IMG/VR virus record: IMGVR_UViG_2579778535_000016
Span: 1-14,511 of that record
Source of the DNA: a virus
Taxonomy: Duplodnaviria > Heunggongvirae > Uroviricota > Caudoviricetes
Reading direction: 5' to 3' (one strand)
DNA: 14,511 nucleotides
The position numbers were made by a program, and so were the translations under genes. Shown here piece after piece: positions 4,022 to 7,283 of the stretch; the stretch's first letter is position 1; each line of letters opens with the position of its first letter. The notes beneath the pieces are model-generated. The model did not search any database. It saw only the letters and a program-made list of their open reading frames with translations, and was not told the origin of the DNA.

Positions 4022-5035
4022 ATGAGAAAAACGATCACATTATCAGGAAGGATATACTGGGTAGACGCATTGCGTTTCATTGCTATGTTTCTAGTGTATA
4101 TAGGGCATCTTGGACCATCTGCTGGTAGAATTTATAGCTTTGTATATCTTTTCCATGTTCCACTCTTCTTCTTTATTTCAGGTATGTTTTACAGAAATAC
4201 AGGAACACTTTGCGACACAGTAAGAAATGGATTTGCAAAGCTCATAGTGCCTTATTTTACTTATTCATTACTGTCTCTTATAGTGTACATCCTTTTCTTG
4301 CAGAAAGATTCTTCACAGGTTTATCCTTTAATTATTCAGATGCTTGAAGCAAAGAGAAACTTTATAGATTATGCACCTCAGTTGTGGTTCTTGCCATGCT
4401 TGTTTATTGTAATGTTAGCATTCAAATTTATACATATGATAAGCAATAGCAAATTAATAATTGTTGCCATATGCTCAGCATCTATGGTTGCAAGTATTTA
4501 TATACCAAGGAATCCTGTTTCAATTTCGCCACAACTGCCATATGCGCTTGACAGTGCTGGATATTATGTATTCTGGTATTGCGTAGGATATTTATTAAAA
4601 GATGTGGTTATTTCATTTTTTAATGAAATAAATATTTATACAAATTCTGTTTTTATATGCGCTATATTTTTTGCGGGTTTTTGTTTCTTTGGGTTGATGA
4701 AACCATACGACACACTGATAGTAAACTTACTAGGCGGTAAGACTTATGCTTTGATTTGGACCGTGCCGACATTAATCTTGTTCATTGCTTGCGTGCCTGT
4801 AGCAAAGGCTCTATCAGATCTTAAACCAGTAAGATACCTTGGAGGAAACACACTTTTCCTTTGTGGAAGCGAGCAGATAGCTAAAACAACATTCATTGCA
4901 CTGATCGGCATTTCCGGACATGCTCTCAATATTGGAGATGAATATTATTCATTTGTGTATATATCATTACTTATGTTGCTTGTTTATGCATTCAAAAAAA
5001 AATTAGACGCCTGGAATGATAAAACCCCGGACTGA
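4022..5035 (+). CDS. Acyltransferase family 3 integral membrane protein (O-antigen O-acetyltransferase-like), 337 aa
   Basis: N-terminal motif WVDALRFIAMFLVYIGH... and a strongly hydrophobic multi-pass sequence typical of OafA/Oac-type acyltransferases. The gene is visibly AT-rich relative to its flanks. Sits between integrase and tailspike, as oac does in Shigella phage Sf6. Confidence 0.8.
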   Translation: MRKTITLSGRIYWVDALRFIAMFLVYIGHLGPSAGRIYSFVYLFHVPLFFFISGMFYRNTGTLCDTVRNGFAKLIVPYFTYSLLSLIVYILFLQKDSSQVYPLIIQMLEAKRNFIDYAPQLWFLPCLFIVMLAFKFIHMISNSKLIIVAICSASMVASIYIPRNPVSISPQLPYALDSAGYYVFWYCVGYLLKDVVISFFNEINIYTNSVFICAIFFAGFCFFGLMKPYDTLIVNLLGGKTYALIWTVPTLILFIACVPVAKALSDLKPVRYLGGNTLFLCGSEQIAKTTFIALIGISGHALNIGDEYYSFVYISLLMLLVYAFKKKLDAWNDKTPD

Positions 5036-5044
5036 CCCGGGGTT
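5023..5044. terminator. Bidirectional stem-loop between the convergent acyltransferase and tailspike genes
   Basis: AACCCCGG-ACTGAC-CCGGGGTT, an 8-bp stem overlapping the acyltransferase stop codon and lying 5 bp from the tailspike stop. Confidence 0.5.
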
Positions 5045-5048
5045 AAAA

Positions 5049-7283
5049 TCATACCTCAAATGTTATTCCATCTAGAAGCACGAATGTAGTCGCATCTCCG
5101 AATGCAAGATTAACTGACCCATCTTCATGTATATCAATAATACACTCTCCCCAAGTTGTGATGCCATTTGCAGATGTTGATACTATTTTTTGTGAGTTTG
5201 GACGGAATTCAGGAGGAAGATCAAACAATTTATACGTTGCTGGTTGTGCGCATGATACCCTACCGGTCAATGATACTTGATTACCAACCCGAACAGCCTG
5301 CACAACAGTAAGAGCCGTCACATCAGTATTCATGGTATTTATTGCCTCAGTAGATGTAACAATCTTTCTCCTGAAGTCAAAAGCCTCTACCACCGGTTTT
5401 ACAATGAGTTCCAATCCCTTCGATGAGTAATGATTGATCCCATTACCACCTTCCGGATACTTTGTATCAGCCGTACCATCATCGTGACCCCAAATGTCGC
5501 TATCTCTGGCAGTATACTGGCACTGCAACCAGTTCCCAACGTTTACTGTAACTGATGCAAAAGGTCCGCTCCCTGGTGAGTCCTGCCACTCTGCAATTAC
5601 TGGAGTCTCGCCGCCGGTTCTTATTAAACTAAATGATATTACTTTTGTGATTCCGGAAAATAAAGTTAAAGTATTATCCTGAACACTTACATCAAGAGTT
5701 TGACCTACCGTTACAGGGACTGTTGTTTGAACATCAATATATGGTGCATCATGTTGCCCATCACAAAATGCCGTAACTTTAAAGTTGCCATTAATATTTG
5801 CTATATAAACAACATCAAGACCACCATGCCCAACCTTCACCAATAATACTTTATCATTAGCCCAGTTAGCCACTTCACCAGACAATGATAAATCTCTTGC
5901 TATTAATGATGTACTGTGTATATAAGATTGGTTGTACACTCCAGCTCGCTCAAGAGGGACTCCAACATAATCACGCCCATCTCTAATAAGACAAAACTGA
6001 CGGTTTATATCAAGAATGGAATAGCCATAGAAACCTGCATAGCTTCTAGCGTATCCTGCCGCCCAGTCGCGACCTTCCTGGAAGATAGTTGCATAAAACC
6101 CTTGACCGCCAGACCATGTAGTGGAAATTGCTGGAACCGGATTAGTAACAAACAACAATGAAGGAACCTTTTCCCATGCTTTAATTTTATTTACCACTGC
6201 ATGTAATGCACCAGCATTGAATCCGTTCGCATCATTCATGCCAAACGCAAGAATTAGCAGATCTGGCGAATCAGATTTTACATACTCAAGCCAATCTTTA
6301 CTTGTGTCTGTGTACCACGCAGGAAATCCTGTTGGTTTAGAATTTGCAGTCAGCCATGTCTGACCTCCGATAGCTCGGTTAATAAAATTTATTGTTCTAT
6401 CCTTGCTTGAATTGGCAATAGCCTTGCTTATGATAGAAAACATACCGTCGCCTGGGGACAATGAATTTGGACCGTCAGTGGCGATTGAATCGCCCATAAT
6501 TACTACTGTTGGGCTTGATGAATTGTAAAATTGAGACATGCTCTCCTGTGCAAGTCCGTTCTGAACTCGCACGTTAGATGGAGCGCCTACTGGGATTGAT
6601 GCTCTACGATAAAGCCCGTTAATCTCACCGCCATCTTGATAAAAGAATACCTCAGTCTTTTTCCGTACCGGAACAGTTATATCGTCAACTGTTACGTTAG
6701 TATCTATAATGATATTCAGTCGCCCGCTTGTAATTGCGTAATCAATCAATGTGTTGAGATTTTGAGCATTTACTTGTGGGGTATTAGTAGAATTTATATT
6801 CCAACGTGGATCAGAAATTCTAATGGAAAGCAACTCATCAATAGTCTTTGAGCCAACGGTGATATGCGTACCACCATTAGGATTATTTAGGTCCCCTCTA
6901 AGGGATGCATCACCTACCCCAACCCATTTACCTTCTCCTATTCCGCCAGTGCTATCAGGTGTAGAACCAGCGGGAACTACTTTGGGCTGTGTCCAGTCCC
7001 CGTCCCAGCGATAGAACTCCCCATTGCTTTCCCACTGAAGAACAGTGTTAGGAGTGTTGAGGGTAGCGCCAATTTCAAAAGATTTCTTCGTGATGTAGCC
7101 ATAATTCAGCATTGCCTGATTTGCATCGTAATTTATACCTTCAATTATACGATGTTTATTGCCGAATCTGTCAACATAAACGTGGTTTCCTGACGTAACA
7201 AACTCGTCAATTTTCCCGGCGTTAAATTTCAGATCGCGTGGTAATTCGCTCGGTACTGGCAGATTAGTAGGTTGGGTAGCCAT
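5049..7283 (-). CDS. Tailspike / tail fibre protein with an internal SGNH (GDSL) hydrolase domain, 744 aa
   Basis: Long ORF at the end of the late operon. The central region has SGNH blocks (VVIMGDSIATDG, AIGGQTW, LAFGMNDANG) encoded at about 6160..6490; flanking sequence is beta-rich and repetitive, as in receptor-binding proteins. Confidence 0.8.
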   Translation of the reverse strand: MATQPTNLPVPSELPRDLKFNAGKIDEFVTSGNHVYVDRFGNKHRIIEGINYDANQAMLNYGYITKKSFEIGATLNTPNTVLQWESNGEFYRWDGDWTQPKVVPAGSTPDSTGGIGEGKWVGVGDASLRGDLNNPNGGTHITVGSKTIDELLSIRISDPRWNINSTNTPQVNAQNLNTLIDYAITSGRLNIIIDTNVTVDDITVPVRKKTEVFFYQDGGEINGLYRRASIPVGAPSNVRVQNGLAQESMSQFYNSSSPTVVIMGDSIATDGPNSLSPGDGMFSIISKAIANSSKDRTINFINRAIGGQTWLTANSKPTGFPAWYTDTSKDWLEYVKSDSPDLLILAFGMNDANGFNAGALHAVVNKIKAWEKVPSLLFVTNPVPAISTTWSGGQGFYATIFQEGRDWAAGYARSYAGFYGYSILDINRQFCLIRDGRDYVGVPLERAGVYNQSYIHSTSLIARDLSLSGEVANWANDKVLLVKVGHGGLDVVYIANINGNFKVTAFCDGQHDAPYIDVQTTVPVTVGQTLDVSVQDNTLTLFSGITKVISFSLIRTGGETPVIAEWQDSPGSGPFASVTVNVGNWLQCQYTARDSDIWGHDDGTADTKYPEGGNGINHYSSKGLELIVKPVVEAFDFRRKIVTSTEAINTMNTDVTALTVVQAVRVGNQVSLTGRVSCAQPATYKLFDLPPEFRPNSQKIVSTSANGITTWGECIIDIHEDGSVNLAFGDATTFVLLDGITFEV

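What the first reader, a model, noticed from the sequence alone, without database searches (positions are those of the whole stretch)
4022..7283. O-acetyltransferase moron paired with a tailspike carrying an SGNH esterase domain
An AT-rich acyltransferase-3 gene (O-antigen acetylase-like) sits convergent to, and 13 bp from, a 744-aa tailspike whose central domain has the GDS / GG / GxND blocks of an SGNH esterase. One locus therefore encodes a likely writer of a surface-polysaccharide acyl mark and a virion-borne likely eraser of acyl marks. That would fit a scheme where the lysogen modifies its receptor while the virion can strip a modification on naive hosts. Some phage tailspikes are known to carry SGNH esterase domains that deacetylate O-antigen, but the pairing with a lysogenic-conversion acetylase in one element is not a standard description.
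Basis: partly seen in the sequence, partly recalled or inferred. Interest (0 to 1): 0.65.

Follow-up and report, generated by a model that had tools for sequence, protein, structure and literature searches.

The report
Acetylase moron beside esterase tailspike
A decayed E. coli prophage carries a sugar-acetylating membrane enzyme gene back-to-back with a tail-spike gene whose core is an acetyl-esterase, but this layout is the usual surface-conversion cassette of this phage group, not a special writer/eraser device.

Summary

1. The element is a defective prophage at argW. It has a 6.6-kb tail deletion, a truncated portal and a split antirepressor, so it cannot make a virion.
2. The pair recurs as one collinear block of about 3.3 kb in at least four prophages. 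However, a convergent AT3 gene right after the spike is generic in this phage group: 12 of 33 distinct non-esterase spikes with the same N-terminal anchor have one, against 5 of 10 esterase spikes (Fisher p = 0.45).
3. The slot is swappable. Sibling phages carry a BamE-like lipoprotein, GtrII or DUF6056 genes there, or a Tat-exported paralog of the spike's own esterase.

Most likely this is an ordinary serotype-conversion cassette: an Oac/OacD-like acetylase plus a deacetylating spike for the same glycan. Whether the acetyl written is the one erased remains open. The Tat-exported esterase paralogs in related prophages are the most interesting by-product.

The parts
4022..5035 (+). AT3-only acyltransferase (337 aa), a lysogenic-conversion moron
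   Evidence: Pfam Acyl_transf_3 E 6.7e-25. His29 is invariant and R/K18-X10-H29 is conserved. The HVPLFFFxSG 45-54 block, P77 and W122-F123 are conserved in 108 homologs. GC is 0.32-0.35. The closest characterised relative is Shigella phage SfII OacD, 26.7% identity over 97% of the length. The exact protein occurs on 41 E. coli contigs.
5049..7283 (-). Tail spike (744 aa) with an SGNH esterase core
6861..7283 (-). Spike aa 1-141: virion-attachment (anchor) domain
   Evidence: phmmer E 1.1e-44 to 9occ chain G, gp13 of Shigella siphophage Sf11. Pfam Tail_spike_N. The same domain at 61-88% identity heads spikes with many other catalytic domains.
5964..6521 (-). Spike aa 255-440: SGNH blocks I-III (Ser266 codon 6486-6488, Gly307 6363-6365, Asn350 6234-6236)
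   Evidence: Invariant columns in alignment A1. Codon coordinates checked. Pfam Lipase_GDSL and Lipase_GDSL_2.
5514..5951 (-). Spike aa 445-590: beta-sandwich (lectin/ConA-like) domain inserted in the SGNH fold
5379..5501 (-). Spike aa 595-635: SGNH block V, GGNGINH, with His618 (codon 5430-5432) and the closing helix
   Evidence: G612, G613, N614, N617 and H618 are invariant. Helix 621-634 in the model. The position three residues before His is Gly615, not Asp, so the canonical acid is absent.
5052..5366 (-). Spike aa 640-744: C-terminal beta-sandwich resembling siphophage receptor-binding heads
5023..5044 (-). 9-bp G+C-rich hairpin, terminator-like for the spike; it overlaps the last codons of the AT3 gene
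   Evidence: Terminator scan and the sequence itself.
3922..3972 (+). (CAGAGG) x 8.5 perfect microsatellite between the Mnt/Arc-like gene and the AT3 start
   Evidence: TRF score 102, 100% matches. Absent upstream of the AT3 orthologs in L149, L138 and L137.
3514..3921 (+). Arc/Mnt-family repressor gene, co-oriented with and upstream of AT3 (immI-like region)
   Evidence: Pfam Arc E 3e-20. PHROG Arc-like regulator. Promoter-like site at 3486-3515. The same backbone in L150 carries a BamE-like lipoprotein gene in place of AT3.
7340..7942 (-). 200-aa fusion ORF marking a 6.6-kb tail-module deletion (junction near 7730)
   Evidence: aa 1-71 are 94% identical to the first 71 aa of the 1141-aa tape measure protein of L150. 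aa 70-199 are 83% identical to aa 697-826 of its 827-aa tail-tip protein. blastn shows L150 909-7553 is missing. PHROG hits.
9529..10149 (-). Portal fragment (206 aa), followed directly by the major tail gene; head genes are missing
   Evidence: The ORF matches only positions 15-159 of the 587-position portal profile phrog_146. Gene order.
1..1158 (+). Tyrosine integrase at the prophage end, next to tRNA-Arg(CCT) (argW) just outside the window
   Evidence: Pfam Phage_integrase E 1.6e-39. tRNA-Arg(CCT) at L001 14674-14748, then yfdC-like, mlaA and fadL.

Best explanation
This is the receptor-specificity end of a decayed siphovirus-type prophage integrated at argW in E. coli. It carries an ordinary serotype-conversion cassette.

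Shown:
- The 744-aa gene encodes a modular tail spike. It has an Sf11 gp13-like anchor and an SGNH acetyl-esterase core split by a lectin-like beta-sandwich. It ends in a receptor-binding-head-like C-terminal domain.
- The catalytic Ser and His and both oxyanion residues are conserved.
- The convergent gene encodes an intact AT3-only acyltransferase of the Oac/OacD type. It has foreign base composition and sits in a moron slot that sibling phages fill with other surface-modifying genes.
- The prophage has lost most tail and head genes.

Inferred:
- In the intact ancestor the spike bound and processively deacetylated an O-acetylated surface glycan, most likely the O-antigen, as G7C gp63.1 does.
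- The AT3 enzyme is probably transcribed in the lysogen by read-through from the upstream Mnt/Arc-like repressor gene. It would add an acyl group to the same glycan in the periplasm.
- The two genes stay linked because both are specific for one glycan type and are exchanged as one block.
- My preferred reading is that the acyl group added is not the one the spike removes. It would lie at another position or on another sugar and would alter or block recognition, as Sf6 Oac and BTP1 GtrC do for their own spikes.
- In the present strain only the host-level effect of the AT3 gene can matter. The spike gene is an orphan.
For: Gene identities.

Position and moron character:
- GC 0.33 against 0.55 in the structural genes.
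- The same backbone carries a BamE-like lipoprotein in the slot in L150.
- AT3, AT3-SGNH, GtrII or DUF6056 genes sit convergent behind at least 18 of 33 sibling spike types.
- A P22-like spike is followed by a convergent OafA-like AT3-SGNH gene in L146.

Cassette inheritance:
- Spike plus AT3 align as one uninterrupted 3283-bp block at 76% nucleotide identity between the window and L149, with unrelated flanks.
- The pair is also present in L138 and L137, with spike identity 61-64% and AT3 identity 69-72%.

Decay.

Literature:
- G7C depends on O-acetylated O-antigen, and deacetylation is essential and processive (PMC10743462; bioRxiv 10.1101/2021.06.09.447823).
- Oac and GtrC/OafB acetylation block the phage's own spike (PMC9558356).

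Against a same-mark reading:
- Sibling prophages put a Tat-exported copy of the esterase in the same slot. This suggests that removing the mark is what makes a lysogen refractory.
- One of them, L155, carries that exported esterase together with an AT3. That combination would be a futile cycle if both acted on one acetyl group.
Against: - No biochemical data exist for either protein, and the target glycan and position are unknown.
- The canonical Asp of block V is absent (Gly615), so activity rests on a Ser-His dyad or on an acid elsewhere.
- The RXXR motif that is essential in Oac is not conserved in this AT3 subfamily.
- No convincing sigma-70 promoter lies directly upstream of AT3.
- Homologs of both genes (58-62% identical) lie within about 10 kb of each other in a non-prophage chromosomal region of Pseudescherichia-like genomes. 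That hints they could act on the same mark.
- Writer plus eraser in one cluster is normal for peptidoglycan O-acetylation (PatA/PatB/Ape1), so the futile-cycle argument is weak.
Confidence: 0.6

Rival explanations
1. Same-mark writer/eraser. The AT3 installs the very O-acetyl group that the spike needs as its receptor and removes. Lysogens then display a mark that shields them from other phages. Virions of this phage family use the mark as a private receptor and destroy it as they go, which also avoids trapping on debris, as with influenza C HEF.
For: - G7C-type esterase spikes require the acetylated glycan (PMC10743462).
- The closest non-phage homologs of both genes co-reside in one chromosomal region: the Tat-SGNH 622-aa protein is 62% identical and the AT3 58-60% identical, about 8.5 kb apart.
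- The pair is inherited as one block.
- L155 has a spike, an exported esterase and an AT3 together, like a PatA/PatB/Ape1-type cluster.
Against: - It offers no exclusion benefit against the phage's own kind.
- AT3 behind the spike is no commoner for esterase spikes than for other spikes (p = 0.45).
- This AT3 subfamily also accompanies a non-esterase spike in L153.
- Esterase spikes occur with no AT3.
- L155's AT3 belongs to a different subfamily, 28% identical.
Confidence: 0.2
2. The two genes have no functional relation. The AT3 is simply whatever moron landed in a generic slot. It acts on a glycan other than the spike's receptor, for example ECA, colanic acid or a capsule.
For: - 12 of 33 non-esterase sibling spikes also carry a convergent AT3, and the Fisher test gives p = 0.45.
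- The slot is swappable.
- AT3 enzymes act on many glycans (PMC9558356).
Against: - The same AT3 subfamily stays with the same esterase clade through 61-84% / 69-72% divergence. This holds in four prophages at different integration sites and in different species, as one collinear block.
- In the characterised cases (Sf6, SfII, BTP1, P22), genes in this slot modify the spike's own receptor (PMC9558356).
Confidence: 0.15
3. One or both proteins are inactive relics. The SGNH module may be only a binding domain, or the AT3 a dead gene in a dying prophage.
For: - The prophage is clearly decaying.
- The block V Asp is missing.
- Truncated copies of both genes exist in some E. coli assemblies.
Against: - Both ORFs are full length and collinear with orthologs in intact prophages.
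- Ser, Gly, Asn and His are invariant across 37 sequences, and the AT3 His29 and core motifs are intact.
- Identical proteins are kept on 33-41 contigs.
- I recall that family CE2 SGNH esterases work with a Ser-His dyad; this was not tested here.
Confidence: 0.05

Closest known systems
Phage G7C tail spike gp63.1 (PDB 4QNL), an O-antigen deacetylase; also Pectobacterium phage PP99 spike
   Different: No sequence similarity is detectable outside the anchor. This spike sits on a temperate siphovirus-type prophage, not a lytic N4-like podovirus. It has a lectin-like insertion, a receptor-binding-head-like C-terminus, and no Asp in block V. The nearest cultured-phage relatives are N4-like Pectobacterium phages Possum and Horatius, at 31.6% identity.
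Sf6 Oac / SfII OacD (AT3-only O-antigen acetyltransferases of serotype-converting Shigella phages)
   Same: AT3-only architecture of about 335 aa, low GC, and a position between tail spike and integrase. The R/K-X10-H motif is present. SfII OacD is the best hit among cultured phages (26.7% identity over 97%). In Sf6 the acetylation blocks the phage's own spike (PMC9558356).
   Different: Identity is only about 27%, and the RXXR motif is not conserved. The partner spike here is an esterase, not an endorhamnosidase. Target sugar and position are unknown.
Salmonella phage epsilon15
   Same: It is a temperate serotype-converting phage whose spike carries an esterase domain (bioRxiv 10.64898/2026.07.31.742079; title and abstract seen). 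Its lysogens change the O-acetylation state of the receptor (PMC9558356).
   Different: epsilon15 is reported to switch host O-acetylation off, through proposed inhibitors of the host AT3. The window's element carries an acetyl writer. The epsilon15 spike also binds and cleaves O-antigen through a separate barrel. I could not read the preprint's full text.
SGNH-domain receptor-binding proteins of Klebsiella prophages (PMC13123978)
   Same: SGNH esterase receptor-binding proteins are common in temperate phages of Enterobacteriaceae, and two were shown to be active on p-nitrophenyl acetate. 5-30% of those prophages also encode acetyltransferases, and the authors discuss an acetylation/deacetylation interplay.
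   Different: That work concerns capsules. In the passages I searched I found no linked spike-plus-AT3 cassette and no test of whether both act on one mark.
Peptidoglycan O-acetylation cluster PatA/PatB/Ape1 and fused AT3-SGNH enzymes OafA/OafB
   Different: In the window the SGNH module is on a cytoplasmically made virion protein with no signal peptide, so it cannot partner the AT3 in the periplasm. Only the Tat-exported paralogs in related loci could do so.

Membership tests
SGNH/GDSL hydrolase superfamily | Three-layer alpha/beta/alpha SGNH fold | tested here: met
SGNH/GDSL hydrolase superfamily | Block I Gly-Asp-Ser with the nucleophile Ser; block II Gly; block III Gly-x-Asn-Asp | tested here: met
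   G264, D265, S266, G307, G348, N350 and D351 are invariant in 37 homologs. The Pfam Lipase_GDSL hit is above its cutoff.
SGNH/GDSL hydrolase superfamily | Block V Asp-x-x-His | tested here: inconclusive
   His618 is invariant and sits just before the closing helix, but the residue three positions before it is Gly615. This implies a Ser-His dyad or a non-canonical acid.
SGNH/GDSL hydrolase superfamily | Esterase activity | not testable with these tools
   Needs p-nitrophenyl acetate and LPS assays.
G7C gp63.1-like esterase tail spikes | Virion-anchor domain followed by an SGNH module in one tail-spike chain | tested here: met
   Tail_spike_N plus SGNH. Anchor matches 9occ gp13 at E 1e-44. Foldseek top hit is 4qnl.
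G7C gp63.1-like esterase tail spikes | Sequence homology of the catalytic part to gp63.1 | tested here: not met
   phmmer and a profile search align only the anchor to 4qnl. tblastn of aa 150-744 against 50,697 phage records does not find G7C.
G7C gp63.1-like esterase tail spikes | Deacetylates the O-antigen without depolymerising it; infection requires the acetylated receptor | not testable with these tools
   Function is inferred from fold and motifs only.
AT3-only O-acyltransferases (Oac/OacD type; Pfam PF01757) | Acyl_transf_3 domain spanning the whole protein, with no fused SGNH domain | tested here: met
   PF01757 covers aa 11-279 of 337, E 6.7e-25. There is no second domain.
AT3-only O-acyltransferases (Oac/OacD type; Pfam PF01757) | R/K-X10-H motif with an invariant His in the first membrane span | tested here: met
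   R18 (R or K in 105 of 108 homologs), ten residues, then H29 (108 of 108).
AT3-only O-acyltransferases (Oac/OacD type; Pfam PF01757) | RXXR motif in the first cytoplasmic loop (essential in Oac) | tested here: inconclusive
   The loop reads R68-NGFA-K73, and neither position is conserved in the subfamily. No alignment to Oac itself was made.
AT3-only O-acyltransferases (Oac/OacD type; Pfam PF01757) | Polytopic membrane protein of about 10 spans | tested here: inconclusive
   A crude hydropathy scan finds nine partly overlapping hydrophobic windows. No dedicated topology predictor was available.
AT3-only O-acyltransferases (Oac/OacD type; Pfam PF01757) | Acetylates the O-antigen of the lysogen | not testable with these tools
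   Needs LPS chemistry with and without the gene.
Phage serotype-conversion cassette (spike plus adjacent glycan-modifying moron near int/att) | Glycan-modifying membrane enzyme gene immediately after the spike, within the spike-to-integrase interval, with foreign base composition | tested here: met
   The same slot holds AT3, AT3-SGNH, GtrII or DUF6056 genes in at least 18 of 33 sibling spike types and in a P22-like prophage, L146.
Phage serotype-conversion cassette (spike plus adjacent glycan-modifying moron near int/att) | Belongs to a phage able to form virions | tested here: not met
   The tape measure and tail-tip genes are fused by a 6.6-kb deletion, the portal is truncated and head genes are absent. 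Intact relatives exist (L149, L150, L137, L138).

The most novel reading that the evidence does not exclude
The AT3 and the SGNH module are two halves of one acetyl-cycling system that temperate phages captured from a chromosomal writer/eraser pair. The prophage writes the very O-acetyl mark that its own spike needs as a receptor and erases. This gives lysogens a shield against foreign phages and gives kin virions a private, self-destroying receptor. In sibling prophages the same esterase module is exported by the Tat pathway. There it either partners the AT3 in the periplasm or strips the mark as a new form of superinfection exclusion.
Probability: 0.2. Interest if true: 0.7.

Novelty: new member of a known kind. 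Interest (0 to 1): 0.35.

Why it matters
If the inferred functions hold, one 3.3-kb block both sets and reads the acetylation state of an E. coli / Enterobacter surface glycan. This state affects serotype, phage host range and vaccine epitopes, and O- or K-locus typing does not capture it. The locus offers a simple experimental system: one AT3, one esterase spike, and intact relatives in Enterobacter. With it one could ask whether a temperate phage writes the same mark that its virion erases. The wider survey gives two results:
- The slot behind this family of spikes is a general hot spot for glycan-modifying genes.
- Some prophages place a Tat-exported copy of their own spike esterase there. 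That possible conversion mechanism did not turn up in my literature search.

Tried and rejected
- Megablast of 3400-7400 against cultured phages found nothing, and against complete E. coli genomes only two partial hits. The element is absent from those collections.
- The genome-contig scan with the spike alignment returned mostly remote SGNH proteins of planctomycetes and clostridia, which were useless for context.
- My own AT3 HMM missed distant AT3 genes such as the OafA-like gene of L146. I therefore checked downstream genes with Pfam instead.
- I considered that the 566-aa genes after the L088 and L092 spikes were fused AT3-SGNH enzymes. They are helicases.
- I considered that the convergent pseudogene after the E. 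coli MB64 esterase spike was an AT3. It is a soluble protein.
- NCBIfam gave no hit for either window protein.
- Sequence searches of PDB with the spike or its profile reach SGNH structures only at E above 0.01, so the fold claim rests on the structure prediction.
- I tested the idea that the pairing is statistically special. It is not (p = 0.45, or p = 1.0 after dropping the two loci chosen with knowledge of an AT3).
- The epsilon15 preprint could not be opened.
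Full report
**Observation.** The window is the reverse complement of positions 2-14512 of locus L001, from E. coli draft contig AYQQ01000026.1, assembly GCA_000503395.1.
They are convergent and 13 bp apart.
- A 9-bp G+C-rich hairpin at 5023-5044 overlaps the last AT3 codons and reads as a terminator for the spike.
- GC is 0.32-0.35 across the AT3 gene, 0.40-0.43 across the spike and about 0.55 in the neighbouring structural genes.

**The acyltransferase.**
- Pfam Acyl_transf_3 matches at E 6.7e-25, and no second domain is present.
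- In 108 homologs His29 is invariant, R/K18-X10-H29 is kept, and the HVPLFFFxSG block, Pro77 and Trp122-Phe123 are conserved. The RXXR motif known from Oac is not conserved.
- The best hit among 50,697 cultured-phage records is SfII OacD at 26.7% identity over 97% of the length. [quoted passage not shown]
- The exact protein occurs on 41 E. coli contigs.
- It is therefore an intact AT3-only enzyme of the Oac/OacD kind. Its substrate is not known.

**The spike.**
- Residues 1-141 match gp13 of Shigella siphophage Sf11 (PDB 9occ, E 1e-44). They carry Pfam Tail_spike_N.
- An AlphaFold2 model built on 75 homologs has mean pLDDT 91.
- Foldseek ranks gp63.1 (4qnl) first over the whole chain, at E 4e-16.
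- Gly264-Asp265-Ser266, Gly307, Gly348-x-Asn350-Asp351 and Gly612-Gly-Asn-Gly-Ile-Asn-His618 are invariant in 37 homologs down to 29% identity.
- The usual Asp three residues before the His is Gly, so the catalytic acid is non-canonical or absent.
- Residues 445-590 form a lectin-like beta-sandwich inserted in the esterase. Residues 640-744 resemble siphophage receptor-binding heads.
- Outside the anchor, gp63.1 shows no sequence similarity. The protein works like gp63.1 but is not a sequence-level member of its family.

**Context: a dead prophage.**
- The integrase (1-1158) abuts tRNA-Arg(CCT), yfdC-like, mlaA and fadL. This is the argW site.
- Reading leftwards from the terminase genes, the portal is a 206-aa fragment followed directly by the major tail gene.
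- The 200-aa ORF at 7340-7942 is the first 71 residues of a tape measure protein fused to the last 130 residues of the tail-tip protein. A clean 6.6-kb deletion separates it from the intact relative L150.
- The antirepressor is split in two.
- This element cannot make a virion, so in this strain the spike is an orphan gene.

**Is the pairing special?** I examined homologous loci.
- The same AT3 subfamily lies convergent after the same esterase-spike clade in L149 (E. hormaechei; spike 84%, AT3 71%, same 13-bp gap), in L138 and in L137 (E. asburiae).
- These prophages sit at different chromosomal sites.
- Between the window and L149, spike plus AT3 form one uninterrupted 3283-bp alignment at 76% identity with unrelated flanks. 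The two genes do move as a block.
- L155 has an esterase spike with an AT3 of a different subfamily, 28% identical.
- Esterase spikes also occur without any AT3. L150/L151/L082 carry a BamE-like lipoprotein in the same slot on the same Arc/antirepressor backbone. L083, L085 and a P22-like prophage of E. coli MB64 also lack one.
- An AT3 58% identical to the window's sits beside a non-esterase spike in a myovirus-type prophage, L153.

As a control I collected 80 IMG/VR loci whose spikes share the N-terminal anchor.
- Among 33 distinct non-esterase spike types with at least 1.3 kb of downstream sequence, 12 have a convergent AT3 or AT3-SGNH gene right after the spike.
- At least six more have GtrII or DUF6056 membrane enzymes there.
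- Esterase spikes score 5 of 10 by my final count, which adds E. coli MB64 to the loci without an AT3. Counting only loci chosen without prior knowledge of an AT3 gives 2 of 7.
- The tests were run before MB64 was added, on 5 of 9 (Fisher p = 0.45) and, dropping the two loci chosen with knowledge of an AT3, on 3 of 7 (p = 1.0). Adding MB64 can only weaken the association.
- The slot behind this family of spikes is a general landing site for glycan-modifying morons. An AT3 there is expected whatever the spike's chemistry.

**Mechanism.**
- Each half has precedent. Esterase spikes deacetylate O-antigen processively and need the acetylated form (G7C; PMC10743462; bioRxiv 10.1101/2021.06.09.447823).
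- SGNH receptor-binding proteins are among the commonest enzymatic domains in Klebsiella prophage receptor-binding proteins, and two were shown active (PMC13123978).
- AT3 morons next to spikes acetylate the spike's receptor and block it (Sf6 Oac and BTP1 GtrC/OafB; PMC9558356).
- The most economical reading is an ordinary conversion cassette. Both genes are tuned to one glycan and inherited together for that reason, and the AT3 adds an acyl group that changes recognition.
- The AT3 lies downstream of, and co-oriented with, an Mnt/Arc-like repressor gene that is divergent from an arc-antirepressor pair. This is the layout of P22 immI. From my own knowledge, mnt is transcribed in P22 lysogens. 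Read-through would express the AT3 in the lysogen; this is inference, supported by a promoter-like site at 3486-3515.
- Whether the group written is the group erased cannot be decided from sequence. Favouring different marks, sibling prophages use the same slot for a Tat-exported esterase. One of them combines that esterase with an AT3.
- Favouring the same mark, homologs of both genes co-reside in one chromosomal region of Pseudescherichia-like genomes. Writer-plus-eraser clusters such as PatA/PatB/Ape1 also exist.

**Side finding.**
- In L084, L085/L102 and L155 the gene directly after the esterase spike, on the same strand, is a paralog of the spike's esterase-to-C-terminus region. Its anchor is replaced by a twin-arginine signal peptide: MAISRRFLLK..., MDISRRKLLG..., MTISRRFLLK...
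- All catalytic blocks are intact in these paralogs.
- In L085 the paralog is 61% identical to its own spike but only 31-35% identical to other lineages. It therefore tracks its own spike's specificity.
- A 622-aa chromosomal version with a Tat signal is conserved in several Enterobacteriaceae.
- A literature search found no description of this.
- An exported copy of the spike's own esterase in the conversion slot would be a neat way to strip the receptor mark from the lysogen. This lies outside the window but is the most interesting lead from the work.

**Verdict.** The writer/eraser pairing is real as a co-inherited block. It is not statistically or architecturally special, it sits in a defective prophage, and its halves are known kinds. 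I file it as a new member of the known class of spike-linked serotype-conversion cassettes, of modest interest. The open, easily testable question is whether the acetyl written is the acetyl erased.

Noticed in passing
L084 4394-6289; L085/L102 10458-12383; L155 about 10420-12333 (related prophage loci): Directly after the esterase spike, on the same strand, lies a paralog of the spike's esterase-to-C-terminus region. A twin-arginine (Tat) signal peptide replaces the virion anchor, and all catalytic blocks are intact. The L085 copy is 61% identical to its own spike against 31-35% to other lineages. It may be an exported receptor-stripping conversion enzyme or a periplasmic partner for an AT3. 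A literature search found nothing on it.
   Followed up: partly
L139-L148, L152 (Pseudescherichia-like chromosomes): A conserved non-prophage region holds a Tat-signal 622-aa SGNH protein, 62% identical to window spike aa 161-744. About 8.5 kb away, across a fimbrial operon, lie two tandem AT3 genes, one 58-60% identical to the window AT3. In L152 a 500-aa pectate-lyase-like protein lies convergent to the AT3 pair.
   Followed up: partly
window 3922-3972: A perfect (CAGAGG) x 8.5 microsatellite lies in the 100-bp gap between the Mnt/Arc-like gene and the AT3 start. Each unit contains a Shine-Dalgarno-like GAGG. It is absent upstream of the AT3 orthologs in L149, L138 and L137. It might modulate AT3 expression or be phase-variable.
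   Followed up: partly
window 7340-7942 and 9529-10149: Two internal deletions mark prophage decay. One is an in-frame tape-measure/tail-tip fusion that removes 6.6 kb. The other is a portal fragment joined almost directly to the major tail gene, with all head genes missing.
   Followed up: yes
window 2561-3270: The antirepressor (Bro-N plus P22_AR_C, one 219-aa protein in L150) is split into two overlapping ORFs, 2932-3270 and 2561-2965, probably by a frameshift.
   Followed up: partly
L156-L235 (IMG/VR loci sharing the spike anchor): The position convergent to the spike is a hot spot for polytopic glycan-modifying genes. Of 33 distinct non-esterase spike types, 12 have AT3 or AT3-SGNH there, several have GtrII glucosyltransferases, and two have DUF6056.
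   Followed up: yes
L153 742-4263: An AT3 58% identical to the window's lies convergent to a 797-aa non-esterase spike in a myovirus-type prophage (baseplate J, wedge and collar genes). The AT3 subfamily is therefore not tied to esterase spikes or to siphoviruses.
   Followed up: partly
window 7300-7321: A strong terminator-like hairpin with a T-run lies between the tail fusion ORF and the spike start codon. The spike would need antiterminated read-through or its own promoter. The 57-bp gap before the spike is conserved in intact relatives.
   Followed up: no
window 1232-1621; L137, L149, L153, L155: A 126-129-aa UmuD-like Peptidase_S24 gene accompanies the spike/AT3 end of these prophages. 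In L137 and L149 a LexA-box-like palindrome (TACTGTAT-N4-ATACAGTA) lies between it and the AT3 gene.
   Followed up: no
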